Made by a program: the position numbers and the translations under genes | DNA from: a virus | Direction: 5' to 3' (one strand) | Virus record (IMG/VR): IMGVR_UViG_3300021178_000002 | Location: 3,830-67,829 of that record | DNA: 64,000 nt | Part shown: positions 2,108 through 59,295 of the stretch, piece by piece | Position numbering within the stretch: the first letter of the stretch is position 1 | Layout: each line of letters opens with the position of its first letter | The notes under the pieces: model-generated | The model's database searches: none | Told to the model about the DNA's origin: nothing | The model's input: the letters and a program-made list of their open reading frames with translations, nothing else

Positions 2108-2734
2108 CTAGTGGAGCTTGAATGCAAGGCGCGCGGTGGCGCGGAGCTTGGGGCTGAAGCAGAGACCGCAGTCACTGCAGGATGCGCGCTTACCGGTCTG
2201 CTCGGGGCAATGCGCTTCGGCCGGTGCTTCGGTCCAGGCGCGAACGATGCGCGCGACTGGCCAGCCGTCCGGAGGTGTCGGCATTGTCGGATCGTGCGAT
2301 GCCCAGATCTTGACGTTGGGCATGCTGCGCAGGATGTCGAGCATGTCGCGGATGGGGCGAACGGTCCAGGATCGGGTGTACGCGTAGAACGTGAGCGCAG
2401 GGTGTACGGCCGCCAGTCGCGACCACATGCCCACGTATGCAGCGCTCACGAAGTCGCCCGAGGTGTGCAGGCGGATGACGGTACCGGCGGGCAGCTTGGC
2501 AAGCTCGGCCGTGAGCATGCGCTCCAGCTGCGCAGGATGCGCGCGCCAGAGTTCGAAGTTGGCCGCGTACTTGGCTTGGACGGAGCCGAACAGGTAGTGA
2601 CCTTTGCGCGCGTAGCAGATCGAAGCGCAGAAGGTCGAAGCGCCCGGGCAACTGGCGGCCGGACCGGCGGGCAGATCGAAGTGCAGTATGTCGCGGCCGA
2701 GCTTGGCGTTTCCGCGTGTCAGAAGCGCGCTCAT
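2108..2734 (-). CDS. Gp88 family protein (radical-SAM-like Cys cluster)
   Basis: GNAKLG...FDLPAG...CPGASTFCASICYA, IRLHTSGDF, FYAYTRSW and C-terminal CP..C..C..C; start reassigned to ATG 2734. Confidence 0.75.
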   Translation of the reverse strand: MSALLTRGNAKLGRDILHFDLPAGPAASCPGASTFCASICYARKGHYLFGSVQAKYAANFELWRAHPAQLERMLTAELAKLPAGTVIRLHTSGDFVSAAYVGMWSRLAAVHPALTFYAYTRSWTVRPIRDMLDILRSMPNVKIWASHDPTMPTPPDGWPVARIVRAWTEAPAEAHCPEQTGKRASCSDCGLCFSPKLRATARLAFKLH

Positions 2735-2928
2735 ATGCTCACCTTTGGGAAGAATCCCGTTTCGGTTTGGCCGGTTTCGTTGTGCTCGGCCGCGCGCGCT
2801 AGTGCGCTTCGGCGTCGCATGTAGGTACCGGATTTGAATCCGCACGTTTCGCATTCCATATCCCATCCGATTGGGGTTGAGGTTGTCTTGCGAACGATGA
2901 CGACGTGGCCGCGTGTGTATGTCGTCAT
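2731..2928 (-). CDS. small CxxC protein
   Basis: MTTYTRGH...CETCG; ATGA overlaps on both sides. Confidence 0.5.
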   Translation of the reverse strand: MTTYTRGHVVIVRKTTSTPIGWDMECETCGFKSGTYMRRRSALARAAEHNETGQTETGFFPKVSI

Positions 2929-3152
2929 GCTGCGAGCATCCGCATGGTTGCAAGGTCGACCGTGAGAGACGAGGTTGCGCTCGCGCAAGCTGCATAAAAG
3001 CGCTTGCGGTCGAATCGTGGATTGTCGGCCGCCAAGGTGTCCGCGATCGCGCGAACATCGGTCACCCATTGGTCTAGGTGGTGAGGCTCATCGGCGAACG
3101 GCTGAGACCGGCGGAGGGTAGAAGCGATCGAAACGTAATCACGGCGTGTCAT
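2925..3152 (-). CDS. small phage protein, first gene of the leftward operon
   Basis: DNPRFDRKRFYAAC motif typical of small phage early proteins; GAGG RBS. Confidence 0.7.
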   Translation of the reverse strand: MTRRDYVSIASTLRRSQPFADEPHHLDQWVTDVRAIADTLAADNPRFDRKRFYAACASATSSLTVDLATMRMLAA

Positions 3153-3169
3153 GTGTCCTCACTTTGGTA

Positions 3170-3748
3170 GGTGGCTGACTGCAGCAACGGCCGAGACCGT
3201 CATTAGGTGTGCTGTAGCGCTCCGTACCCTCAGATACGGCCGGACATGCACACCTAACGGCGGTGAGACCGAACGGCCGTCAGGCTTGGAACCTAACGGA
3301 CGTTGCACGCGGCCGCGAGCGCTCAAACAGGCTTGGAACCTGCGAACAGTCGCGGCCGCATGCGGTCTCAAAGGATGGGGAGAGAATCGCGCGCAGGTTT
3401 GCGGTTACCTAGTGGCCTAGGCGATGGGGAATCTGAGCCGGTACCCTGCGCGCGATGATTGGTGATCGAGGAAACGCGCGTAACGCGCGCGGTTTGAAGT
3501 GTCAGGTTTGACGGATTCGCAGCTTACCTAATGTGCCCATCGCATCGCACAGGCACGGCCGATCCAATTTCCCTTCGGATCGGCTCAGGGTGGTTTCGAG
3601 ATTCCAACGCGCGGTCTCCCAGCCTTGAACAGTGACCCAGCTACGCACGACATGTGCGGTAACGGCTGGCGTTGCTGTAGGCATTCAAGAGATACCGTTT
3701 CCCCTGACTGCTGATGGCTAGCGCCTCGCTAGCTTACGATCTGACCAT
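3170..3748 (-). ncRNA. candidate large structured non-coding RNA or 5' leader
   Basis: No credible ORF; many nested stems (3196-3212/3248-3264, 3264-3271/3363-3370, 3305-3318/3350-3363, 3386-3397/3445-3456, 3558-3565/3577-3584) and long-range closure 3179-3189/3670-3680; directly downstream of a near-consensus promoter. Confidence 0.6.
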
Positions 3749-3754
3749 GACGCC

Positions 3755-3783
3755 ACACTACACCCACCCTACACCCGTGTCAA
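3755..3783 (-). promoter_or_regulatory. leftward sigma70-like promoter
   Basis: TTGACA (3783-3778), 17 bp spacer, TAGTGT (3760-3755). Confidence 0.75.
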
Positions 3784-3797
3784 GACATTTCTTAATT

Positions 3798-3990
3798 GGG
3801 TAGCCAGGCAACCTTTAGTAGCCGACTGCCCATAGGGAGGGGAAAGACACGCGGGCACGCGCTTACCATATGTGTGGGTGTAGTGTCAATAGCCATGTGT
3901 GCAGGGTAGCCAAGCGACCATATGTAGCCTGTATAGGTAGGCTTGACATGGCCATGAGCGCAGGGGTGTATAGCCAGGCTTGACACGTTG
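3798..3990. repeat. cluster of short direct repeats between divergent promoters
   Basis: TAGCC at 3801, 3819, 3890, 3907, 3925, 3971; ACCATATGT at 3865 and 3917; GGCTTGACA at 3940 and 3977. Confidence 0.55.
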
Positions 3991-4067
3991 GCCAAAAGTT
4001 CTCGGCGCTATCCCATGGAGCATGCTAGGTCCTCCGCGCTACAAAATGAGAAACCAGGTGACCCCTG

Positions 4068-4096
4068 TTGACTCTACACCCGATCTGGAGTACCTT
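4068..4096 (+). promoter_or_regulatory. rightward sigma70-like promoter of the virion arm
   Basis: TTGACT (4068-4073), 17 bp spacer, TACCTT (4091-4096); followed by a 5' hairpin (4102-4109/4148-4155) and AAGGAGG. Confidence 0.65.
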
Positions 4097-4173
4097 GATA
4101 CGGGGTGCCGGTACAGTCCAACCGGGATCCTAGGAAGTCCGGAGACGGGCGCCCCAATCCAAGGAGGACACGC

Positions 4174-4341
4174 ATGAGAAAGTCGACATCCAAGCAGGAG
4201 TTCTTGCGCCGGCTGGAGCATCGGAGTAGTCGGTTGGGTCGGAGATGGATGCTGATGCCCGAGGGGCGCCGTGAGAAGCGTCTGGGACTCAAGGTGGCGA
4301 GGTTGGATATCCGGATCGAGGAGGTACGCAAGAAGAAGTGA
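4174..4341 (+). CDS. small basic protein
   Basis: AAGGAGG RBS, ATG 4174, Arg/Lys-rich 55 aa. Confidence 0.65.
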   Translation: MRKSTSKQEFLRRLEHRSSRLGRRWMLMPEGRREKRLGLKVARLDIRIEEVRKKK

Positions 4342-4586
4342 GCCGAGAGCTGCGCGACGCGCTGATCCTGGCCCTGATCCCGCTCGCTGCGGTGGCCTTC
4401 TCGCTCTTCGAGTGGGGCGGAATCACCAACGCGCCGTGGAGCACGATCTCCAAGTACGCCCAGGAAGACCACAGGCTAGCGATCGCCCTTCTGATCCTGC
4501 CCTGGGTCGCAGCGGCCGTGTACAGCGCCTGGTGGATCCACCACATCTGGTTTTCGTTCATCCCGCGGCTCCACCTGCTCGGGTAA
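4338..4586 (+). CDS. membrane protein
   Basis: two hydrophobic segments; GTGA overlap. Confidence 0.65.
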   Translation: MSRELRDALILALIPLAAVAFSLFEWGGITNAPWSTISKYAQEDHRLAIALLILPWVAAAVYSAWWIHHIWFSFIPRLHLLG

Positions 4587-4659
4587 GATCTCGGATGGTG
4601 CTCGCCTACCCAGGGCGGAAGGTCTCGATGAAGCGTGAAGACCACGCGAAGGAGCACCC

Positions 4660-7417: not shown

Positions 7418-9058
7418 GTGATCGACATCAACCAGCAACGGGATCCGATGTCGATCGCGGCTGACATCCTCGACAAGGGTTCGCAGTCGACGATCGAAGA
7501 GTTCTGCAATCAGGAACTCGGCGAGGAGATGTACTCCAAGCAGCGCGAGATTACGCAGTCGATCATCACCAACCGGCGTACAGCGGTGAAGAGCTGCCAC
7601 GCTGCCGGCAAGAGCTTCCTTGCCTCACGGGCTGCCGCCTGGTGGATCAAGTTCCACCGTCCCGGTGAGGCCTTCGTGGTCTCCACCGCGCCGTCCAACG
7701 ACCAGGTCAAAGGCGTGCTCTGGAGGGAGATGAACCGGGTTCATAAGAAGGGCCACCTCGATGGCCACATGAACCAGACGGAGTGGTGGATCAACGACGA
7801 GCTGGTCGCATTCGGACGCAAGCCGCAGGACCAGGACCCTGGGTCATTCCAGGGCATCCACGCGCGGTACGTGCTGATCATCATCGACGAGGCCTGCTGG
7901 GTGCCAAAGGACCTCTGGATGGCTGCCGGCTCCCTTGCTGCCAACGCCAACTCGAGGATCCTGGCGATCGGCAACCCGGACGATCCCGGAAGCTATTTCT
8001 CGGAGGTCTGCAAACCAGGCTCAGGCTGGAACGTCATCCGCATCTCCTACCGCGACACACCCAACTTCTCAGGCGAGCCGGTCTCTTCACTGCTCAAAGA
8101 ACTGCTTATCTCGGAGATCTACGTCGACGACATGCGCCATGAAGTCGGCGAGCAGGGGGCTCCCTTCATCTCCAAGTGCGAGGGCGAGTTTCCGACTGAG
8201 GCTGAGGATGCTGTGGTGTCGACCACCAAGCTGATGAACTGCATGCGTCCAGAGCAGTCCCACACGGCCAAGGAACTCACGCCTCACGAGTTGGGCTGGG
8301 ACGTCGGCGCCGGCGGAGATAAGTCCGCGGTCAGAGAGCGCATGGGTGTCAAGGTTGGCCGCGTCTGGTATCCCAAGGGCGGGGCTGACACCATGAAGCA
8401 GGTCGGCGAGGTCGTGAACATCATCAACCAGACCAAGGTCACCGCGATCAAGATCGACACCATCGGCGTCGGCCACGGAGCTGCTGACCGACTCGAGGAA
8501 CTACGTCGTGAAGGGAAGCACAACGCCAAGGTAGTCAGAGTCAACGTCTCCACCAAGTCGACCAAGCCGCTCAAGTTCATGCGCCTGCGCGACGAGATCT
8601 GGTGGACGATCGGGCACCAGATGATCAACGAGGGAGTGCTCGATCTACACGGACTCGACGATGCCACCGTCGCTCAGCTGCTCTCCCCCAAGTATCAGCT
8701 CGACTCAGGCGGACGAGTCAACGTCGAGGCCAAAGACGAGACCAAGACACGTCTCGGACGTTCACCGGATGACGCAGACGCACTGCTGCTCGCATTCTTC
8801 AAAGGATCCGGACAGGGATCAGCTTTTCAGGAGGCATGGCGCAAGCTTGCGGCCAAAGAGGCTGGAATGCCGGAAGCCCAACCGACGCAGCAGAGGATTG
8901 CTCATCCATCCCGCGTCTTCAGCATCATGCGAATTCCCCGCCGCGCTACACAGCGGGTGCTAACCCGGACCAGCTGCGAGCACCGCTTCCGAGGACCAAC
9001 TTCGGGAGATCTGTGCGTTTTCTGCGGAACTACCAGAGAATTAGCGACAAAGCAGTGA
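7418..9058 (+). CDS. terL: terminase large subunit
   Basis: Walker A (SCHAAGKS), Walker B (IIIDEA), IGNP, nuclease motifs LGWDVG, IDTIGVG, RSPDDADAL. Confidence 0.92.
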   Translation: MIDINQQRDPMSIAADILDKGSQSTIEEFCNQELGEEMYSKQREITQSIITNRRTAVKSCHAAGKSFLASRAAAWWIKFHRPGEAFVVSTAPSNDQVKGVLWREMNRVHKKGHLDGHMNQTEWWINDELVAFGRKPQDQDPGSFQGIHARYVLIIIDEACWVPKDLWMAAGSLAANANSRILAIGNPDDPGSYFSEVCKPGSGWNVIRISYRDTPNFSGEPVSSLLKELLISEIYVDDMRHEVGEQGAPFISKCEGEFPTEAEDAVVSTTKLMNCMRPEQSHTAKELTPHELGWDVGAGGDKSAVRERMGVKVGRVWYPKGGADTMKQVGEVVNIINQTKVTAIKIDTIGVGHGAADRLEELRREGKHNAKVVRVNVSTKSTKPLKFMRLRDEIWWTIGHQMINEGVLDLHGLDDATVAQLLSPKYQLDSGGRVNVEAKDETKTRLGRSPDDADALLLAFFKGSGQGSAFQEAWRKLAAKEAGMPEAQPTQQRIAHPSRVFSIMRIPRRATQRVLTRTSCEHRFRGPTSGDLCVFCGTTRELATKQ

Positions 9059-37625: not shown

Positions 37626-37838
37626 TCACTCGTTCTCGGAAAGCCACTTCACAGCAGTCATGGCTGCATTGAGGTAAGCATCCGTCGGATCCTTGCGCTG
37701 TTCCTGGCCTGGTACGTATGCGGCCCAGATAGTATCCCGCATCGGCTTTGGCAGCATGTACCAATGCCGGCGACACATGAACATCCTCGGTGGCACAGGG
37801 ACATCGCAGTCCATGGCATGACAGGTATGGACGCTCAT
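37626..37838 (-). CDS. small zinc-finger protein
   Basis: HTCHAMDC...MCRRHW; ATGA overlap with the polymerase stop. Confidence 0.7.
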   Translation of the reverse strand: MSVHTCHAMDCDVPVPPRMFMCRRHWYMLPKPMRDTIWAAYVPGQEQRKDPTDAYLNAAMTAVKWLSENE

Positions 37839-40237
37839 CCCTTCCACTTCTCCGTCGTGCCCCATCTCTCACCGACTTCGATCTCGACGTCGAACGGGAC
37901 GTCGGTCTTAAGCAGAGTAGAGCCGGTCATTGTCCGATAGATCTGGTACAGCACGTCGTCAAGGATCTCCTTGCGGACCTCGAAGTTGATCGAGTCGTGG
38001 ATCGGGAAGAGAACGTAGGCGCCTTTCGGTAGCTGATCGTGGAGCTTGATCATGGCGTCCAGGCAGATGTCAGAGGCGGTGCCCTGGATCGGGAAGTTGG
38101 CAGCCTCGCGGCCGACGGCATTGCCAGCTCCAGGTGGAATGAATGGCCAGCGTCGACGTCTCCCGAGAGGGGACTCCACGTACTGGTTCTTGAGCGCGAA
38201 GTTCTTGGTCAATTCAATCCACTGCTTGAGCTTGGGGAACCCGTTGAGGAACCGGTAGAGAAACAGCTCAGCCTCCTCGATCGACCACCACTCGGCATCA
38301 GGATCCTTGTACTCCAGCTCGGCGCCCTCGACCAGCGACTGCGGACTGCGGCCGTAAATGATGCCGAAGTCAACGTGCTTGGCCATCACCCGTTCGGCCT
38401 TGGTGACAGCCTCAGCCGGCTTCTTGAAGATCATCGAGGCGACCTCTGTGTGTATATCGCGTCCGGTCCTGAAGACCTCCTGCATCTGCTCATCGCCAGC
38501 GATCACCGCAGCGACACGCAGTTCCAGCTGAGAGTAGTCGGCGGCCACCCAGACATATCCGGGCGAAGGGATGAAGGCGTTGCGGATGGCCGGTCCCATG
38601 AGAAGCGGGATATTCTGGATGTTGGGGGCGGCTGACGACAACCTCCCCGTCGCCGTCCCTAGAAGTTTGAAGTCGGACCGGAGCCGTCCATCGCGGCCAA
38701 GAAGATTGAGGATCTTATCGATATAGGTGGCCATGATCTTCTTGAGCAAGCGCAGCTCGACGATGTCGTTCAGCCCCTGCTTGATCACCGGATCGGTGGC
38801 CCGCTGAGAGAGCCCGAAGAGGATGTCCTTGGCCGTGGAATCCTCCGGCATCTCCATCGCCCGTTTGCCTGCCAGGTGAGGCTTGGGAGCCTTCCAATGC
38901 GTGTAGATGAGCTTGCTCAGCTGTGGTTGCGACTGCGGGTTGAACTTCTCCATCCCGAACTCAGCAGCCAACGCTTGGATCGAAGCATTCTTTTCCTCGA
39001 TCTTGGCCTGAGTAGTGACCTTCAGCTCCTCGAGGTATGGGCGATCTATCTTCACCCCGTGCAGCTCCATCTCTGCCAACGTGTAGGTCGCCGGCATGAG
39101 CAAGCTGTAGAACAAGGACGCCAGGCGAGGCGACTGCTCGTCCATCTTGGTGCGAAGGTCGCGCTTCAACTTCGAGGTGTAGCCGAGGTCGAGCGACTGG
39201 TACGCGTAGAGAGCCTGGAGGCGCTCCGTGCCCAGGCCCTGGGTGAAGTCGAAGTCGTAGTCCTCGGCGTCGTAGTGGATCCGGGCCTGTGTCTTCAGAC
39301 CGTGAGACTTGTACTTGCTGAATGGACGCTCGTCCAAGGTGTAGTGCATGACCATGCAGTCGACCGCGTGAGGTCGGATGCGCTCGCCGAAGTAGGCGTC
39401 TAAGAACTGAATGTCGAACTTGGCGTTCCAGAGCCCGAACTCGCCCCCGTAGGTCTCGGTAAAGAACTGCTTCAACAACGCTTTCACAGCTGGGACCTTG
39501 AGCAGGAGGGGACTGATGATCACGCCGGCGTCGTCGTTGCCGATGCCGCAGCTGACGATGCGATGGACCATCGGGTTGTCACCTGTGGTCTCAACGTCGA
39601 TGGTGAGATCACGACGGTCCATCATCTCGAACAGGTAGCGCTCTGCTGTGGCCAGCGATCCGGGAACGACGTAGTCGACCTCGAGGTCGGGCAGCGGGGA
39701 GGAGTACTCGGTCCACTTCACGATGTCGGCGGCGAAGTCGCGGAAGTATTCAGCATCACGCAGGACGGCCGCCGGGTGGAAGGTGGGCAGCGTGTAAACC
39801 AGCCGCCCACCCCACTCCGTCCACACACCACGGCCGTGCCAGCGCGTGATCGGCATCGCTTTGTCGGCTCGCAGGACGGCAGTTAAAGCAACGCCGCCGA
39901 CGGTGAGGATCTTGGTCGGCGCGACAAGCGCCAGCTCCTCCTCAAGCCGTGGGCGGCACCCTCTAATCTGTGCGATCCCCGGCGTCTTGTTACCAGGTGG
40001 ATGGCAAAGCACCGTGTTGGTGTAGAAGATCTCCTGGTCGTCGACGCCGGCCTGCCGCAGGACAACCCTCAGAAGACGGCCGGCCTGCCCGACGAACGCC
40101 TGCTTGCGCTGGACCTCGGTGTTGCCCGGAGCTTCTCCAAGAATGAGCAGGCCGTCACCAGGACCGTAGCCCTGGACGGTCGGTGAGTCCTTGAGTGGAC
40201 ACTTCTCACAGCGGCTAGGGAGCAGAGACCGGCTCAC
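37835..40237 (-). CDS. polA: family A DNA polymerase with N-terminal family-4 uracil-DNA-glycosylase-like domain
   Basis: GEAPG, TNTVLCHPP, FHPAA (UDG); DVETTG, NAKFD (exonuclease); ATGRLSS, DYSQLELR, KHVDFGIIYG, IHDS (polymerase). Confidence 0.93.
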   Translation of the reverse strand: MSRSLLPSRCEKCPLKDSPTVQGYGPGDGLLILGEAPGNTEVQRKQAFVGQAGRLLRVVLRQAGVDDQEIFYTNTVLCHPPGNKTPGIAQIRGCRPRLEEELALVAPTKILTVGGVALTAVLRADKAMPITRWHGRGVWTEWGGRLVYTLPTFHPAAVLRDAEYFRDFAADIVKWTEYSSPLPDLEVDYVVPGSLATAERYLFEMMDRRDLTIDVETTGDNPMVHRIVSCGIGNDDAGVIISPLLLKVPAVKALLKQFFTETYGGEFGLWNAKFDIQFLDAYFGERIRPHAVDCMVMHYTLDERPFSKYKSHGLKTQARIHYDAEDYDFDFTQGLGTERLQALYAYQSLDLGYTSKLKRDLRTKMDEQSPRLASLFYSLLMPATYTLAEMELHGVKIDRPYLEELKVTTQAKIEEKNASIQALAAEFGMEKFNPQSQPQLSKLIYTHWKAPKPHLAGKRAMEMPEDSTAKDILFGLSQRATDPVIKQGLNDIVELRLLKKIMATYIDKILNLLGRDGRLRSDFKLLGTATGRLSSAAPNIQNIPLLMGPAIRNAFIPSPGYVWVAADYSQLELRVAAVIAGDEQMQEVFRTGRDIHTEVASMIFKKPAEAVTKAERVMAKHVDFGIIYGRSPQSLVEGAELEYKDPDAEWWSIEEAELFLYRFLNGFPKLKQWIELTKNFALKNQYVESPLGRRRRWPFIPPGAGNAVGREAANFPIQGTASDICLDAMIKLHDQLPKGAYVLFPIHDSINFEVRKEILDDVLYQIYRTMTGSTLLKTDVPFDVEIEVGERWGTTEKWKG

Positions 40238-40559
40238 CTGATTCCTCTTCGAGGACCTCCATGATGGCAACCGCCACCGCAGCGCAGTGGAGCGCCTCCT
40301 TCATCCGTGCCTCAGGTGTTTGCCGCTCGGGCTCATCGTCCCTGAGGACTGTCCTGGCCAGCTCACCGACCTCTTCGCTCAGCACCGCATGCCAGATGAG
40401 TAGACGCTCCTCGAGCGGGCGGGTCATGTCCCGCTCAGGAGCAGTCGCGTGCTTGACATCCTGCCGTGAGCGCTCGGCGGCAATCTTGCCAAACGCTCGG
40501 TACATGGACGGAGGAAGGAACCGCTTGCGGTTCTTCCAGTGGAACGACGGAAAGTCCAC
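40215..40559 (-). CDS. MazG-like NTP pyrophosphatase
   Basis: LSEEVGELA...EALHCAAVAVA. Confidence 0.7.
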   Translation of the reverse strand: MDFPSFHWKNRKRFLPPSMYRAFGKIAAERSRQDVKHATAPERDMTRPLEERLLIWHAVLSEEVGELARTVLRDDEPERQTPEARMKEALHCAAVAVAIMEVLEEESGEPVSAP

Positions 40560-40561
40560 GC

Positions 40562-41122
40562 CTATCCTCCGATATGCTGCCAGCGACGGGCGATGTCTCG
40601 ACGCGCCCGGTCAGTCAGCCCCTTAACGAACCGAAATTTCCCAGGCACCTTGACCTCTTTGAACCCGAGCGCCTCGATCGCCGCCTTGTTCAGGTGGGTT
40701 GACCCGGCGTGGAATTTGCGCCTCGCAACAATTCGCCCATCCTGATCCCTGTACCCTCGCGCCTCCTCGCTTTGGCCCGTGTAAATCCACGACGCCGCCC
40801 GGTAGACGCCGCCCTTGTGGCCGGCGTTCGGATCGGCGAAGGACACCAGGGCCTCTACGGTCGGCTCGTCCTTCCTGAAGCCCCGTACAGCCTTGGCGAT
40901 AGCGCGAGTCAGCAGATCGGGTGCGTGGCCGTCAGGGGCCCAAAGACGGGTCAGCTCCCACACCTTCCCCTCGCGTCCCAGGACGAACTTGGCAAGGTAG
41001 GGGTTGGCTGGGATTGAGAACAGCACGATCGCATCCTCGAACACGTATTCCCGCGTCTTGCCCGAGGGTAGGGAATGAGTGTAGTGGTGGCGCAGGATAT
41101 CCTCGCGGGTCGGCGAAATCAC
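40562..41122 (-). CDS. Mom-like GNAT DNA modification protein
   Basis: HHY, ELTRLW, VSFADP..GHKGGVYRAASWIYTG. Confidence 0.8.
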   Translation of the reverse strand: MISPTREDILRHHYTHSLPSGKTREYVFEDAIVLFSIPANPYLAKFVLGREGKVWELTRLWAPDGHAPDLLTRAIAKAVRGFRKDEPTVEALVSFADPNAGHKGGVYRAASWIYTGQSEEARGYRDQDGRIVARRKFHAGSTHLNKAAIEALGFKEVKVPGKFRFVKGLTDRARRDIARRWQHIGG

Positions 41123-50837: not shown

Positions 50838-52312
50838 TGGTTGATCCAGCCGAGCCCGCCCAGGTCGAGCTGCAGCTTGGCCCGCGTCACGGTGACGTAG
50901 GCGAGGCGGGTCTCCTCCTGAGAGAACTTGAAGGTGGGCGACTCCGGGTCTCGCATGAAGTCAGGACCGACGCGTACCGACTCCCACTCCCGACCCTTGG
51001 CCTTGTGCGCCGTGCTCACGGTGACGTCCGCCACCGATTCCTCGGCGAGGTTGTCGACGATGGTGATCACACCCTCCGCGGTGTAGGTGTCGATCAGGTT
51101 GACGAAGACCCTGAGATCGGATCCGGCGCGCTCGTTCTGCACGAACTCCTGGACCTCGTGCCAACTCTTGAAGAGCATCAGCTCGCGGTGGCTGGTTGAC
51201 TGGCCGTTCTGAAGCTGGATGGCAGCTCGAGCCAGCGCGATCAGCTCTCGGCCGTTGCCGACCAGTGCTGCCTTGAGCCCCTGTCCCTGTGCGTAGATGA
51301 CCTCGGCCAGGGCACCGGCGTTGGAGCGGCATAGGATGGCGCGCGGCTGTTCGATGGGACCGACCACCGACTCGAGCTTGGTGTTGCCGGTGATGCGGAA
51401 CTCCCCGAGCTTGGCCAGCCATCGGTTGGCCTCGTCGGCGATCGCTGGACCGAAACGGAACGACTGGGAGAGAGGCAGACGGCGGCCTTCGAAGTCGTCC
51501 ATGGCATCGACGGCGCCCCGCCAGGCGTAGATCTGCTGTGCCGGGTCTCCAACCAGGATCTTCTGAGCGTTGTACTGGTTCTTGATGATGGCCGCGATCA
51601 CGGGGTTGGCGTCCTGCGCTTCGTCGAGCAGGATGAAGTCAGCCGGAAGCTGGACGCCCGAGAGGTGCCACATCTTCAGGTAGTGGTCGTGCTCGAAGCG
51701 CATGCGACCGCCGTCCACCAGGTTGACGTCGTCCCAGATCTGGCGGGCATAGGGAAGCACCCTCTCGGCGACAGCCTTGTTCTGCTTGCGTGAGAGCTTG
51801 ATCTCCCAGGGCACATGCTCCAGGGAGATGAACTCGTCGGCTGACCAGCAGAAATTCTGCACGGTGTCGCCGGCGATGGTGGCAAGGTGCTTGGGCTCAA
51901 GCGAGGCCCGTGTGAACCTCTCACCCTTCTCCTCGTCCTCGTCGAGCAAGATGCCGGTCATGCCAAGCATCTCGGCCACCCGCCAGGATGGGACACGGGA
52001 GTCCGTCAGCCTGGACTGGAACTTGAAGCCCACCGCGCGGAAGGCGAGCGAGTGGGCAGTTGAGCAGTTCACGTTGGGCGGGAAGGTGCCTTTGGCATCG
52101 GTGGCGATCGCCTTGTTGTAGGCGATGTAGAAGCCGCGGCGTGGAGCCAGCGCGCGTCCGATCATGCGCTGGGTCGAGGTCTTCCCGGAGCCTGCGCCGG
52201 CGACCACCACCAGGTCCCCACCAGTGCGCGCGGCACCGATGATGGCAGCCTGCTCGTCGGTCGGCTTCAGCTGCGGCGTGGCGGTCGGGAACTTGACGTG
52301 GATTTCTGGCAT
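50834..52312 (-). CDS. UvrD/SF1 helicase
   Basis: AGAGSGKT, LLDEAQD, VGDPAQQIY.WRGA, SFRFG, TAHKAKGREW, YVTVTRA. Confidence 0.92.
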   Translation of the reverse strand: MPEIHVKFPTATPQLKPTDEQAAIIGAARTGGDLVVVAGAGSGKTSTQRMIGRALAPRRGFYIAYNKAIATDAKGTFPPNVNCSTAHSLAFRAVGFKFQSRLTDSRVPSWRVAEMLGMTGILLDEDEEKGERFTRASLEPKHLATIAGDTVQNFCWSADEFISLEHVPWEIKLSRKQNKAVAERVLPYARQIWDDVNLVDGGRMRFEHDHYLKMWHLSGVQLPADFILLDEAQDANPVIAAIIKNQYNAQKILVGDPAQQIYAWRGAVDAMDDFEGRRLPLSQSFRFGPAIADEANRWLAKLGEFRITGNTKLESVVGPIEQPRAILCRSNAGALAEVIYAQGQGLKAALVGNGRELIALARAAIQLQNGQSTSHRELMLFKSWHEVQEFVQNERAGSDLRVFVNLIDTYTAEGVITIVDNLAEESVADVTVSTAHKAKGREWESVRVGPDFMRDPESPTFKFSQEETRLAYVTVTRAKLQLDLGGLGWINQ

Positions 52313-57041: not shown

Positions 57042-58843
57042 AGGAACACCACCGCGCTGGCCTCGAGGCCCTGACGGTTGCCACGGACAAGTCCCATCGT
57101 GCGCAGGATACTCACGTTGTTGGCAAAGCCTGAGCTGGTAGGCGACTGTCCAGAGTGGCGCGCCACGGTGTCCCATCCTGCAATGGTCGGTGAGCCGCTA
57201 CTGGTGAGGTAGCGCAGGATGCGCATCTGCGGGGCTGTGATCTTGCCGGCGATCGCTCTGAGCAGGTCTTCGGTGGTCAGCGGGACGTCGGGTGCGGTGG
57301 CAGCTCGGCGGCCGTTCTCCGTGAGAGCTAGTCCACCGGACTTGTTGCCCTCGAGGAGACCCCCGACGCGGAGAACGCTCACGTTGTTGGCGAAGCCGGA
57401 GGACTTCGGCGACTGCAGTGCGAGCACGGCGATGAGTGTCCAGTGCGAGCCTCGTTGGCCAATCGATTCCATCCACGCCAGTGCATCCAGGATGCGCTGC
57501 TGAGGAGGTGTCAGTTCATTCGTTGGCGTACCGCGGGTAGACACCTTTGAGATGTCGATCATGCGGAGAGCTTCACTCTTTCCGTGCTTCGGTGGAACGC
57601 CCACGAAGGCTGTGCCGCTCTTCGCAGGCGGCCAAGTACTCACCGCTGGGCCGGTTGAAAGGACGGCCTCGGCCAAGTCACCGAGGGCATCAGCCTTCGT
57701 GATGGTCTGGGTCTGCGTGTCGAGTTTCAGTGTGATGCGGCCCTTGGTGTCCTTCATGAACGAGTCCCACAGGCGCTGCAGCTCATCCCAGTCCGGTTCG
57801 ACCAGTTCGTGGACGGTCTGCATCTGGATCTTCGGCGGAACATTCTCGAGCCTGGTGATCTCCACCGCGTATTTCTGGGCGAGGTCAGCGAACTCGTCCA
57901 GCTGACGCTGCAGCTCGATGATCTTCCTACGCAGCTCCTTCGGGTCGTCATGCTTGGCGTGATCGATCACAGACTGCAGCTGGCCGGAGATCTTCTGCAG
58001 GTCGACGCTGCTCAGTGTCTTGGGCGTGATCATCTTTTCGCCCACCTTGGGTGTGGCCGCCGAGTCGAATGTGTGCCGCCGGCGGATGAAGTAGCGGTTG
58101 AGGAGCTTCAGCCACTCTGGTGACCAGATGTAGGCCTCACCGTCCCTGAGATGCGGCAGCTCGCTGAGAATCTTGTCGCGCTCCTCTTTGGTGCCGTGGA
58201 ACTTGATCCACTCCTCGATGGCGTCGCGGTCCTGAGGGCCGATGGTGCGGTGCGCGATCAGCGTCTCGGCCTGGGTGGTCGTGTTCTTGTTGATGGCCGC
58301 CGAGCGCTGGGAGATCGCTGTTGCGCCGATGCCGTCCATGCGGCCCCAGCGGATGAGCCGGTCGGTGGCGCCAAGCATCTTTGCCTCATCGGGCTGCGGC
58401 CTCTGAGGGATGAAGGCGTCGGCCTCCTCGAGGAAGACGTGGACGGGGACACGATCGTTGTGGTTGAGCAGGTAGGTCACGAAGTCGGTGACGAAGCGGG
58501 AGCGGTCGGCGACCGACCAGCCCTTCATCGACAGGATCATGGAGATCCGGTGCTCGATGAACAGCCGTGCCATCAACTCGCCGGTGTGCGGGTCGAGCGG
58601 GAGATCAGGATGCCGGCCGCCAAATACGTAGATGTTGAGACCGGGCTGATCTCCTGCGAACGACGATTTGAGTCCCCACCAGGCGTCGATGGGGTCCAGG
58701 ACCACAATCGGTGCCAGCTTGATCATCTCTTCGGCAAGCACGACCGCAGTGTTGGTCTTGCCCGAGCCGCGCTTGCCGAGGATCAGAAAGGTCTGGGTGA
58801 CCGCGTCGTTGGGCAGCTGGAGTTTCTCTGCGAGCTTTATCAC
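57038..58843 (-). CDS. HerA/DUF87-like P-loop ATPase with two C-terminal wHTH repeats
   Basis: GKRGSGKT, VLDP, FLEEAD, RWGR..GIG..ISQR; QSPxSSGFANNVSxLR occurs twice. Confidence 0.85.
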   Translation of the reverse strand: MIKLAEKLQLPNDAVTQTFLILGKRGSGKTNTAVVLAEEMIKLAPIVVLDPIDAWWGLKSSFAGDQPGLNIYVFGGRHPDLPLDPHTGELMARLFIEHRISMILSMKGWSVADRSRFVTDFVTYLLNHNDRVPVHVFLEEADAFIPQRPQPDEAKMLGATDRLIRWGRMDGIGATAISQRSAAINKNTTTQAETLIAHRTIGPQDRDAIEEWIKFHGTKEERDKILSELPHLRDGEAYIWSPEWLKLLNRYFIRRRHTFDSAATPKVGEKMITPKTLSSVDLQKISGQLQSVIDHAKHDDPKELRRKIIELQRQLDEFADLAQKYAVEITRLENVPPKIQMQTVHELVEPDWDELQRLWDSFMKDTKGRITLKLDTQTQTITKADALGDLAEAVLSTGPAVSTWPPAKSGTAFVGVPPKHGKSEALRMIDISKVSTRGTPTNELTPPQQRILDALAWMESIGQRGSHWTLIAVLALQSPKSSGFANNVSVLRVGGLLEGNKSGGLALTENGRRAATAPDVPLTTEDLLRAIAGKITAPQMRILRYLTSSGSPTIAGWDTVARHSGQSPTSSGFANNVSILRTMGLVRGNRQGLEASAVVFL

Positions 58844-59295
58844 TGCCCCGGCCTCAGCTCTTCGCGAACTTCCATCAGCAAGCGGCCAAGGTTGTTCTCA
58901 CCGACCAGAGAACCATGCACGTTGCGGATGGCGCCCCAGAAGATGTCACCCCAGCTATTGCCCTCTATGAGGAGAGCGTCGCCGGTCTCCAGCAGCCTCC
59001 TGGCCATGGTCATTTCGTTGAACTTGGCACGCAACAGGTCGTGCATGAGCCCGAGCTTGTACTCCTCCCACTCAGGACGGAGTCTCAGCTTGCGTCCTGC
59101 TTGCTTGGCAGAAGACGCTGTCTGGTAGACGGGTGAGGGCAGCTGGAATGGTCTGCGTGCAACTTGGTCCACAGTCTTGGCAGCCTGGAAGGCGTGTTCG
59201 ACCGTGGGGTACGCGTGGCCGGACCAGGTCACGATGGACGGATAGAAATTGCTGAGAAATGCGTTCTCGCCGGTGAACTTTTCGATCGACTTCAT
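58840..59295 (-). CDS. NADAR (YbiA-like) protein
   Basis: FLSNFY, TVEHAFQAAK, AKF, LLETG..LIEGN.WGDIFWG, GENNLGRLLMEVR. Confidence 0.92.
   Translation of the reverse strand: MKSIEKFTGENAFLSNFYPSIVTWSGHAYPTVEHAFQAAKTVDQVARRPFQLPSPVYQTASSAKQAGRKLRLRPEWEEYKLGLMHDLLRAKFNEMTMARRLLETGDALLIEGNSWGDIFWGAIRNVHGSLVGENNLGRLLMEVREELRPGQ

What the first reader, a model, noticed from the sequence alone, without database searches (positions are those of the whole stretch)
3170..3748. ~600 nt ornate structured RNA at the head of the leftward operon
Seen: a near-consensus promoter (TTGACA-17-TAGTGT) points left into ~600 nt with no credible ORF before the first gene. The stretch is densely paired: a 17 bp stem 3196-3212/3248-3264; a three-way domain closed by 3264-3271/3363-3370 holding two hairpins with the identical cap (minus strand AGG-UUCCAAG-CCU, a 7-nt T-loop-like sequence); a perfect 12 bp stem 3386-3397/3445-3456; an 8 bp stem 3558-3565/3577-3584; long-range closure 3179-3189/3670-3680; and possible pseudoknots 3421-3428/3536-3543 and TTGGAA loops with TTCCAA at 3602-3607. 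In the twin-loop domain most imperfect pairs become G-U on the minus strand, matching promoter direction; elsewhere strand evidence is mixed. The predicted +1 begins AUG-GUC-AGA-UCG-UAA. Known: phages carry large ncRNAs (GOLLD, ROOL) and RNA antiterminators (HK022 put). I recognise none here. Inference: an undescribed phage RNA class acting as antiterminator, protein decoy or scaffold.
Basis: partly seen in the sequence, partly recalled or inferred. Interest (0 to 1): 0.8.

Follow-up and report, generated by a model that had tools for sequence, protein, structure and literature searches.

The report
Modular structured leader RNA of phage early operon
The ~600 non-coding bases between a soil phage's early leftward promoter and its first gene most likely form a chain of conserved RNA hairpin modules, much like the abundant early non-coding RNA of mycobacteriophage L5 but unrelated to it in sequence.

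Summary
The observation largely holds. Window 3153-3750 is non-coding and lies downstream of a leftward TTGACA-17-TAGTGT promoter that is conserved in a relative. The excess folding energy is concentrated in 3186-3462 on the minus strand (z -9.1, against -3.8 on the plus strand). The 5' third folds no better than shuffles on the minus strand.

Comparative support is real but thin. Hairpin B (3196-3264) keeps 27 of 27 pairs with 9 double changes against metagenome contig L034. The 5' module (3548-3712) keeps 45 of 45 pairs with 10 double changes against viral contig L095. The 3717-3733 hairpin shows 3 double changes in a soil-run variant.

The modules occur separately in different phages, so this is a string of modules rather than one ornate 600-nt fold. 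The proposed long-range closure loses to a local hairpin.

There is no Rfam match. The closest known thing is the ~500-nt Pleft non-coding RNA of L5/D29 upstream of genes 89 and 88 (PMC5712189). Position and synteny match, including a gp88 homologue. Sequence and structure models do not. Function is inferred, not shown.

The parts
3755..3783 (-). Early leftward promoter: -35 TTGACA (3783-3778), 17-nt spacer, -10 TAGTGT (3760-3755). The predicted start is near A3748.
   Evidence: Read. The same -35/17/-10 arrangement is in L033. The TATAAT-based scan does not flag it. A 13-nt perfect inverted repeat, 3755-3767 with 3874-3886, overlaps the -10.
3734..3748 (-). Five-codon mini-frame AUG GUC AGA UCG UAA at the predicted 5' end. 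Its significance is unknown.
   Evidence: Read. There is no AUG at the matching place in L033. GAUCGUAAG is shared with L033.
3717..3733 (-). 5' hairpin: 7 bp, GCUAGCG-AGG-CGCUAGC.
   Evidence: Found in the folds. A variant contig of soil run X3 has changes on both sides at 3 pairs (3719/3731, 3720/3730, 3722/3728), and all three keep pairing.
3548..3712 (-). 5' module. It holds a long irregular hairpin (3622-3682), a hairpin at 3558-3584, and two blocks that are almost unchanged between the two sequences (3681-3706 invariant; 3585-3627 with 2 changes).
   Evidence: Aligned to L095:585-749 at 88% column identity with no gaps. The consensus has 45 pairs, 90 of 90 cells paired, and 10 pairs changed on both sides. 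Slid controls give 0 double changes, and 1 of 500 shuffles reaches the observed value. Model R2 finds it in 2 of 87 sources, the window and L095.
3386..3456 (-). Domain closed by a perfect 12-bp stem (3456-3445 with 3397-3386), with an inner hairpin at 3407-3422.
   Evidence: Both arms of the stem are also in L035, around a different insert: a 20-nt identity at 3382-3401 and 88% over 3436-3461. The sequence is unchanged, so there is no covariation information. The arm CAUCGCGCG is also in L033 and L034.
3305..3363 (-). Hairpin A': a 14-bp GC-rich stem plus an extension, capped AGG-UUCCAAG-CCU.
   Evidence: This is the second copy of the 14-nt cap. L034 has no counterpart.
3272..3304 (-). Hairpin A, capped AGG-UUCCAAG-CCU.
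   Evidence: The cap and its neighbours are identical over 16 nt in L034. In my own reading, the stem differences are mostly G-C to G-U on the minus strand, and each arm carries one extra base.
3196..3264 (-). Hairpin B: 27 pairs with a UGAG apical loop, flanked by direct repeats CGGUCUC (3271-3265 and 3199-3193). It ends about 35 nt before the ribosome-binding site.
   Evidence: Against L034:2908-2976: 27 pairs, 54 of 54 cells paired, 9 pairs changed on both sides, 3 changed on one side to or from G-U. Slid controls give 0-2 double changes, and 0 of 500 shuffles reach the observed value. Model R1 finds it in 2 of 75 sources. No U tract follows it.
3150..3160 (-). Ribosome-binding site GAGGA (3160-3156) and the start codon of gene 1 (3152-3150).
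2108..3152 (-). First three genes, joined by ATGA overlaps: gene 1 (3152-2925, 75 aa), gene 2 (2928-2731, 65 aa, weak DUF7848 match) and gene 3 (2734-2108, a gp88 homologue).
   Evidence: Gene 3 matches Pfam GP88 at E 5.7e-34 and L5 gp88 by BLASTP at E 1e-22. Gene 1 has 31 distant relatives in IMG/VR.

Best explanation
Window 3153-3748, minus strand, is the transcribed non-coding leader of the phage's early leftward arm. The record is circular, so this arm continues into the DNA-replication genes at 37.8-64 kb.

The leader is a chain of independently folding, separately inherited RNA hairpin modules:
- a 5' hairpin;
- a ~165-nt 5' module;
- a 12-bp-stem domain;
- two hairpins capped UUCCAAG;
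- a 27-pair hairpin B just before the first ribosome-binding site.

It is the positional and architectural counterpart of the abundant, stable ~500-nt Pleft RNA of cluster A mycobacteriophages (L5, D29, StarStuff), but it is not a detectable homologue.

Proposed mechanism (inferred, not shown): transcription from the early promoter produces the leader first. Its very stable 3' hairpin array (3186-3462) acts as a barrier or processing site, by pausing, factor-dependent termination or double-strand-specific cleavage at hairpin B. Only part of the transcripts would then continue as mRNA for the early arm, while a nuclease-resistant leader RNA accumulates. The sequence-invariant single-stranded blocks and the identical UUCCAAG caps would be binding sites for a phage or host factor.
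For: Shown by tools:
- Promoter and direction.
- Non-coding.
- Strand-biased excess stability: z -6.93 against -3.81 for the whole stretch, and -9.12 against -3.79 for the core. The L034 leader shows the same bias, -5.23 against -3.49.
- Compensatory evolution: hairpin B has 9 double changes in 27 pairs with none broken. The 5' module has 10 in 45 with none broken. The 5' hairpin has 3.
- Strand: 13 paired cells in these two structures are G-U on the minus strand and would be A-C mismatches on the plus strand (4 of 54; 9 of 90).
- Modularity: L034; L095; L035.
- Same orientation in front of a leftward gene in the window, L034 and L095.

Parallel with L5:
- A gp88 homologue is the third gene.
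- The long leftward arm carries DNA polymerase A, ThyX and helicases.
- The L5 leader is also more stable on the transcribed strand (-3.66 against -1.96).
- In L5, as here, the part next to the first gene is the most structured (L079 1600-1899: -6.2 and -3.8).
- PMC5712189 (sections 10 and 11 read) reports an abundant, stable, processed ~500-nt Pleft RNA, about 90% of transcripts ending before gene 89, and the gene-proximal part being needed for lytic growth. bioRxiv 10.1101/2025.11.21.689395 (passages read) reports the same peak in D29.
Against: - There is no expression data. No RNA run holding this sequence was listed.
- Each comparative test rests on only two sequences, and each consensus structure was derived from those same sequences. 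The figure of 100% paired is therefore partly by construction.
- The 5' third is not more stable than shuffles on the minus strand (z -0.85) and is slightly better on the plus strand (-2.84). One position in L095 (alignment columns 135/149) is G-U only on the plus strand.
- Under the single-sequence fold, 3 one-sided changes inside the L095-type variant break pairs.
- The close relative L033 (terminase 82% identical) lacks nearly all modules, and its leader has z near 0. The modules are therefore dispensable for this phage type.
- No canonical terminator follows hairpin B.
- There is no homology to the L5 RNA. Transferring L5's properties here is analogy only.
Confidence: 0.6

Rival explanations
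1. Processive antiterminator of the put or nut kind. The promoter-proximal 5' module (3548-3733) folds on the nascent RNA and modifies RNA polymerase, alone or with a phage protein. The polymerase can then read through the hairpin array and the ~30-kb early arm.
For: The module starts about 15-35 nt after the predicted start. It is conserved with covarying helices next to invariant unpaired blocks. It is found in front of leftward genes in two otherwise different phages. The very stable hairpins downstream would be obstacles that need overcoming.
Against: The module is absent from L033 and L034, which have the same genome layout. No canonical terminators were found to be overcome. The resemblance to put is recalled from memory and was not tested.
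Confidence: 0.12
2. A DNA-level control region. The palindromes and the repeated AGGCTTG-type motifs are binding sites for a repressor or other DNA-binding protein, like the operator and stoperator sites inside the L5 Pleft leader. The RNA folds would then be incidental.
For: AGGCTTGRMA occurs 4 times in 64 kb, all on the plus strand within 3282-3985. Two copies are the twin caps and two lie in TTGACA boxes of the rightward control region. The expected count is 0.39, and 1 of 100 shuffles reaches 4. The L5 leader holds seven stoperators (PMC5712189 section 10). Several stems are perfect palindromes. GGAACCT-type motifs recur in the L033 leader in a different structural context (my reading).
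Against: A protein-binding palindrome should conserve its sequence, but here the stems change sequence and keep pairing. G-U pairs favour one strand. The helices are long and irregular, up to 27 pairs with bulges, unlike operators. The 14-nt cap motif is not spread through the genome: 7 matches at up to 3 mismatches against 5.8 expected. The AGGCTTGRMA pattern was chosen after looking at the sequence.
Confidence: 0.1
3. One large globular RNA of a new class, comparable to GOLLD or ROOL, in which all 600 nt fold together through long-range helices and pseudoknots.
For: The full-length minimum-energy fold contains long-range pairs between the 5' end and 3187-3205, and a three-way junction. Complementary 8-11-nt segments exist. 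GAGACCG and CGGUCUC occur four times in 3193-3618.
Against: The modules are inherited separately. The 3670-3680 segment covaries with a local partner. The junction helix is lost when the core is folded alone. The middle part 3463-3547 is not conserved in any relative found. The long-range helices show no covariation at all.
Confidence: 0.07
4. Selfish or neutral hairpin DNA. The modules are small mobile palindromic elements, or recombination scars, that pile up in a tolerant non-coding gap. Any pairing constraint would act on single-stranded DNA during their spread.
For: The distribution is mosaic, with sharp homology breakpoints (loose ends). L033 does without them. A 5-nt slippage variant occurs at 3538.
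Against: Each module was found only in leaders, in one orientation relative to the downstream gene, and never elsewhere in the 64-kb window or in the other loci searched. No terminal repeats or target duplications were seen. The near-invariant unpaired blocks beside covarying stems point to a function for the sequence itself.
Confidence: 0.08

Closest known systems
Pleft non-coding RNA of cluster A mycobacteriophages (L5, D29, StarStuff). Sources: PMC5712189, abstract and sections 10-11 read; bioRxiv 10.1101/2025.11.21.689395, passages read.
   Same: - It lies directly downstream of the early leftward promoter, at the head of the arm that carries the replication genes.
- It is about 500-600 nt with no credible ORF.
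- It is followed by a small gene and then a gp88-family gene.
- It is more stable on the transcribed strand, and most structured next to the first gene (against 5, 6, 68).
   Different: - There is no sequence similarity. blastn of window 3100-4200 found nothing in 50,697 phage records.
- Models R1 and R2 find nothing in the L5 locus.
- The conserved core of the L5 RNA looks tRNA-like (tRNA-clan hit of 22.1 bits at E 0.028). The window has no tRNA-clan hit at E up to 10.
- The L5 leader is studded with stoperators, and no equivalent genome-wide motif was found here.
- Abundance, stability and toxicity are known for L5 only.
HK022 put and lambda nut antiterminator RNAs (recalled; no model or sequence was tested here).
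   Same: These are structured RNA elements in the leaders of phage early operons, transcribed before the genes they control. Small hairpins with specific loops serve as recognition elements.
   Different: As recalled, put and nut are about 15-70 nt. This leader is about 600 nt with at least five domains. No antitermination protein, boxA-like element or downstream terminator was identified. Membership could not be tested.
Large structured bacterial and phage RNAs in Rfam (GOLLD, ROOL, HEARO, OLE and the like).
   Same: A long non-coding RNA carried by a phage, with many helices.
   Different: No family reaches its gathering score anywhere in the window. The best sub-threshold hits in 3100-3850 are at E 1 or worse and 17 bits or less. 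The element is modular, and each module was seen in only two sequences.
RNase III processing hairpins in phage early transcripts (T7 early region, lambda N leader; recalled).
   Same: Hairpin B is a long, nearly perfect double-stranded stem of 27 pairs with small internal loops. It lies between a leader and the first ribosome-binding site and has no U tract.
   Different: This is inferred from shape and place only. No cleavage data exist, and no family definition could be tested with these tools.

Membership tests
Cluster A mycobacteriophage Pleft non-coding RNA | Lies between the early leftward promoter and the first small gene, upstream of a gp88-family gene, at the head of the early or replication arm. 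| tested here: met
   Promoter at 3755-3783. Gene 3 matches Pfam GP88 at E 5.7e-34 and L5 gp88 by BLASTP at E 1e-22. The leftward arm carries DNA polymerase A, ThyX and helicases. L5 layout.
Cluster A mycobacteriophage Pleft non-coding RNA | About 500 nt without a credible or conserved ORF. | tested here: met
   The codon-position GC signal is flat over most of 3150-4100. ORFs in the stretch are 70 aa or less on the minus strand and are not shared with L033, L034 or L095.
Cluster A mycobacteriophage Pleft non-coding RNA | Detectable homology in sequence or structure model to the L5/D29 RNA. | tested here: not met
   No blastn match in 50,697 phage records. R1 and R2 have no hit in L079 at E up to 10.
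Cluster A mycobacteriophage Pleft non-coding RNA | A tRNA-like core (acceptor-like stem plus a T arm with loop UUCGAUU) at the gene-proximal end. This is my own observation on six cluster A phages, not a published definition. | tested here: not met
   L5 has a tRNA-clan hit of 22.1 bits, E 0.028, over the full model (alignment). Window 3100-3850 has no tRNA-clan hit at E up to 10. ARAGORN finds nothing in the window.
Cluster A mycobacteriophage Pleft non-coding RNA | Abundant, stable, processed transcript that is toxic when cloned. | not testable with these tools
   No RNA run was listed for this sequence.
Any Rfam family, including GOLLD, ROOL and riboswitches | Covariance-model score at or above the family's gathering threshold. 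| tested here: not met
   0 matches in the whole window. 0 in L033, L034 and L079. The best hit with the evalue threshold is 17.4 bits against a gathering score of 65.3.
T-loop / tRNA T arm (consensus recalled: G53-C61 closing pair, U54 U55 C56 R57 A58) | A seven-base loop with U-U-C-purine-A, closed by a G-C pair. | tested here: not met
   The caps read AGG-UUCCAAG-CCU. The closing G-C, U54, U55, C56 and A58 fit, but position 57 is C and not a purine. The minimum-energy fold instead extends the stem to leave a CCA triloop. The consensus is recalled and comes from no call.
Intrinsic (factor-independent) terminator | A GC-rich hairpin followed directly by a U tract. | tested here: not met
   0 terminator-like sites in 2800-4400 on either strand. 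The sequence after hairpin B has no U run.
HK022 put-type antiterminator RNA | Two specific stem-loops that make RNA polymerase terminator-resistant without protein factors. | not testable with these tools

The most novel reading that the evidence does not exclude
The 5' module (3548-3712) and the hairpin A/B unit (3196-3304) are two new families of phage cis-acting RNA that swap between the leaders of early operons in soil actinophages. Together with the cluster A Pleft RNA, whose conserved core appears to be a tRNA mimic ending where the transcripts end, they would define a general class. In this class, each phage opens infection with an abundant 'early leader RNA' that is built from interchangeable modules and captures a host factor such as RNA polymerase, a ribonuclease or tRNA-processing enzymes.
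Probability: 0.15. Interest if true: 0.8.

Novelty: new variant of a known kind. Interest (0 to 1): 0.55.

Why it matters
The first RNA a phage makes can set the course of infection, yet the abundant Pleft RNA of L5 and D29 is essential in part and still has no known function. This finding offers an unrelated sequence in the same position, with the same strand-biased structure next to the first gene, in a distant phage lineage that probably infects soil Actinobacteriota. That suggests the leader RNA belongs to this genome architecture in general and is not a quirk of cluster A. The compensatory changes give concrete helices to mutate, and the invariant loops and blocks give candidate binding sites. 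The mosaic distribution shows that non-coding leader modules are exchanged between phages in the way genes are.

Tried and rejected
Searches for homologues that gave little or nothing:
- blastn (distant mode) of window 3100-4200 against 50,697 phage records: no match.
- 31 IMG/VR loci encoding relatives of the 75-aa first gene: no similarity to the leader. The only blastn/nhmmer hits (L031, L032) lie about 1.9 kb downstream of the gene match and were not pursued.
- Terminase relatives: 1 IMG/VR locus, 41 metagenome loci and 11 genome loci. Only L033/L035, L034 and later L095 share any leader sequence.
- Pattern scans of IMG/VR: twin cap, 0 hits; cap plus GTGAGACC, 3 hits; loop of hairpin B plus GAGACCG, 1 hit; 16-nt cap, 4 hits. 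All 8 hits are in unrelated, mostly coding, context. Two patterns from the 5' module found only L095.
- R1 found nothing in 4 records reached through loci, nor in 151 genomes sampled from the phylum of G001. This means 'not found in those searched', not 'absent'.

Expression:
- No RNA holder was listed for window 2600-4600. The four soil runs laid were DNA contigs only.
- Parts of the stretch without cover in runs X2-X4 say nothing.

Ideas dropped:
- tRNA or tmRNA in the window.
- A canonical terminator after hairpin B.
- A hidden ORF.
- A kissing interaction between the UUCCAA loops and UUGGAA at 3602-3607. I saw no such partner in the L034 leader by eye.
- A genome-wide stoperator-like motif.
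- A survey of flat-GC gaps upstream of the terminase in 27 relatives, which was uninformative.

Closed or unseen:
- Supplements are closed. The csRNA catalogue of PMC10690425 and Additional file 2 of PMC5712189 (the cluster A alignment) could bear on novelty and were not seen.
- Paper searches found no description of this element. They also found no occurrence of the word 'tRNA-like' in the two D29/L5 papers.
Full report
Setting. The window is positions 3830-67829 of a 67,829-bp IMG/VR virus record with terminal repeats, so the assembly is effectively circular. GC content is about 61%.
- Rightward from about 4100 run small genes, the large terminase (7418-9058) and the structural genes.
- Leftward from 3152 run a 75-aa gene, a 65-aa gene, a gp88-family gene and a DUF932 gene.
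- Because the record is circular, this leftward arm continues into 64,000-37,835, which holds DNA polymerase A, ThyX, SNF2 and UvrD helicases and a nuclease.
- Terminase relatives at 45-63% identity sit in contigs labelled Solirubrobacterales, Acidimicrobiaceae, Nonomuraea and Acrocarpospora. Cultured phages are below 41%. The host is probably a soil actinobacterium, and the phage belongs to no studied cluster.

The observation.
- The promoter is as described: -35 TTGACA at 3783-3778, a 17-nt spacer and -10 TAGTGT at 3760-3755 on the minus strand. The same arrangement is in relative L033. A TATAAT-based scan does not report it.
- Between it and the ribosome-binding site GAGGA (3160-3156) there is no coding signal. 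The codon-position GC difference is at most 0.08 in most windows from about 3120 to 4100, with a rise to 0.10-0.18 for windows starting 3571-3691. Neighbouring genes give 0.2-0.4.
- The 598-nt stretch folds at -267.9 kcal/mol on the minus strand (z -6.93) and -260.8 on the plus strand (z -3.81). No shuffle out of 100 is as good in either case.

Where the structure is.
- A scan with 200-nt windows puts the excess in 3200-3499 on the minus strand (z about -11 and -5.5, against about -2 on the plus strand; 30 shuffles each).
- Folded alone, 3186-3462 gives -146 kcal/mol and z -9.12 (0 of 200 shuffles), against z -3.79 for the plus strand.
- That fold is four hairpin domains in a row: the domain closed by the 12-bp stem, hairpin A', hairpin A and hairpin B.
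- The three-way closing helix appears in the full-length fold but not in the core's own fold or centroid.
- The 5' third (3548-3748) is no more stable than shuffles on the minus strand (z -0.85, 42 of 200 as good) and slightly better on the plus strand (-2.84).
- So 'densely paired over 600 nt' overstates the case.

Relatives. Homologues are scarce, and each shares only part of the leader.
- L033/L035 (terminase 82% identical) keep the promoter region, the 5' words GAUCGUAAG, the block CAUCGCGCGCAGGG and, in L035, both arms of the 12-bp stem around a different insert. The L033 leader folds no better than shuffles on either strand.
- L034 (terminase 85%) shares only 3209-3330 at 76% identity, which covers hairpin B, the flanking CGGUCUC repeats and one UUCCAAG-capped hairpin. 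Its first gene is unrelated to gene 1. Its leader is also strand-biased (z -5.23 against -3.49).
- L095 is a different phage, found through a 21-nt word. It shares only 3551-3706 at 81% identity, placed about 95 nt in front of an unrelated leftward gene.
- Contigs of four soil DNA runs add further variants of 3440-3807. The one from run X1 is the L095 type and is not independent.

Covariation.
- Hairpin B, window against L034: 27 pairs, 54 of 54 cells paired, 9 pairs changed on both sides and 3 on one side through G-U. Sliding the partner by 1-3 columns gives 0-2 double changes and 24-41% pairing. 0 of 500 shuffles reach the observed values. Four of the nine double changes could reflect a one-base register shift in both arms, which is itself a compensated change.
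- 5' module, window against L095 in an ungapped 165-column alignment: 45 consensus pairs, 90 of 90 cells paired, 10 pairs changed on both sides (7 in the long hairpin 3622-3682 and 3 in 3558-3584). Slid controls give 0 double changes, and 1 of 500 shuffles reaches the observed value.
- Two segments are almost unchanged (3681-3706 invariant; 3585-3627 with 2 changes), so they carry no covariation information.
- 5' hairpin 3717-3733: the run X3 variant changes both sides of 3 of its 7 pairs and keeps them all.
- Caveats. There are only two sequences per test. The structures were predicted from those same sequences. Under the window's own fold, three one-sided changes in the L095-type variant break pairs.

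Which strand.
- Promoter direction points to the minus strand, as does the conserved orientation in front of leftward genes in three phages.
- In the two tested structures, 13 paired cells are G-U on the minus strand and would be A-C on the plus strand. Eight of them lie in an invariant helix that has no other support.
- One position in L095 favours the plus strand (alignment columns 135/149).
- The energy bias is clear for the 3' core and absent for the 5' module.

What it is not.
- No Rfam family matches, and there is no tRNA or tmRNA.
- No canonical terminator is present.
- The closure 3179-3189/3670-3680 loses to the local, covarying hairpin.
- The caps fit a T loop at four of five consensus positions and in the closing pair, but not at the purine of position 57. 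That consensus is recalled.

Closest known.
- In L5, D29 and StarStuff, Pleft drives an abundant, stable ~500-nt non-coding RNA. It is processed into smaller species, and about 90% of transcripts end before gene 89. The gene-proximal part could not be deleted (PMC5712189, sections 10 and 11). A 2025 preprint sees the same peak in D29 (10.1101/2025.11.21.689395, passages).
- Gene 88 follows gene 89 in L5, and the window's third gene is a gp88 homologue.
- The L5 leader shows the same pattern of stability: minus strand -3.66 against plus strand -1.96 overall, and strongest next to gene 89.
- There is no sequence or model similarity. The element therefore works from the same place and probably in a similar way, but it is not a member of that family.

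Mechanism (inferred).
- The leader is made first.
- The hairpin array at its 3' end probably limits or processes transcripts before gene 1 and protects the released leader from exonucleases.
- The invariant blocks and identical caps are candidate binding sites.
- I give this reading 0.6. The rivals are a put-like antiterminator, a DNA-level operator array, a single globular RNA and selfish hairpin DNA; they are listed with their evidence in the Rival explanations section.

Verdict. This is a real, strand-specific, modular structured leader RNA with compensatory support in four helices. It is new in sequence and structure but has a known positional analogue. Its function is untested.

Noticed in passing
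L079:1634-1729 (-) = L5 record about 51,133-51,228; also L096-L100: The most conserved part of the cluster A Pleft non-coding RNA looks tRNA-like. It has an invariant acceptor-like stem (GGGUAG with CUACCC) and a T arm with the invariant loop UUCGAUU and three covarying stem pairs. It also gives a full-length sub-threshold tRNA-clan hit of 22.1 bits at E 0.028. ARAGORN calls no tRNA there. Its 3' end falls at the edge of the 51,140-51,190 zone where PMC5712189 says about 90% of Pleft transcripts end. That suggests processing like a tRNA rather than termination. The word 'tRNA-like' does not occur in either D29/L5 paper.
   Followed up: partly
window 3750-4100: The divergent control region is built from repeats. 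GTGGGTGTAGTGT with ACACTACACCCAC forms a 13-nt perfect inverted repeat (3755-3767 and 3874-3886). CTACACCC-type copies lie at 3766 and 4071. TGTATAG-N3-AGGCTTGACA occurs twice (3930, 3967). GGGTAGCCARGC occurs twice (3798, 3904). A likely rightward promoter, TTGACT-17-TACCTT, lies at 4068-4096 and is shared with L033. These are probably operator sites, and the physical genome end may also lie here.
   Followed up: partly
window 3282-3985: AGGCTTGRMA occurs four times in the 64-kb window, all on the plus strand within 700 bp. Two copies are the RNA hairpin caps and two lie in TTGACA boxes. The expected count is 0.39. The pattern was chosen after looking at the sequence. It may link the caps to a DNA-binding factor.
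   Followed up: partly
window 2731-3152: Genes 1, 2 and 3 of the leftward operon are joined by ATGA start/stop overlaps at 2925-2928 and 2731-2734, which implies translational coupling. The ORF list alone suggests longer, overlapping frames.
   Followed up: yes
window 3533-3548: The direct repeat CATCG-CATCG is shortened by 5 nt in contigs of two other soil runs, X2 and X4. This is a slippage polymorphism inside the leader.
   Followed up: no
window 37835-40270 (-): The DNA polymerase A gene carries an N-terminal uracil-DNA-glycosylase-superfamily domain (Pfam UDG, E 4e-23) fused to the exonuclease and polymerase domains.
   Followed up: no
window 40562-41122 (-) and 58840-59295 (-): The leftward arm encodes a Mom-family protein (E 2e-23) and a NADAR-domain protein (E 5e-22). 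They may act in DNA modification and ADP-ribose processing.
   Followed up: no
L033:1839-2389 compared with window 2731-3152: Between the shared gp88 gene and the shared promoter, the closest relative carries entirely different small genes, including cysteine-rich 49-61-aa frames. This is a clear mosaic replacement next to the leader.
   Followed up: no
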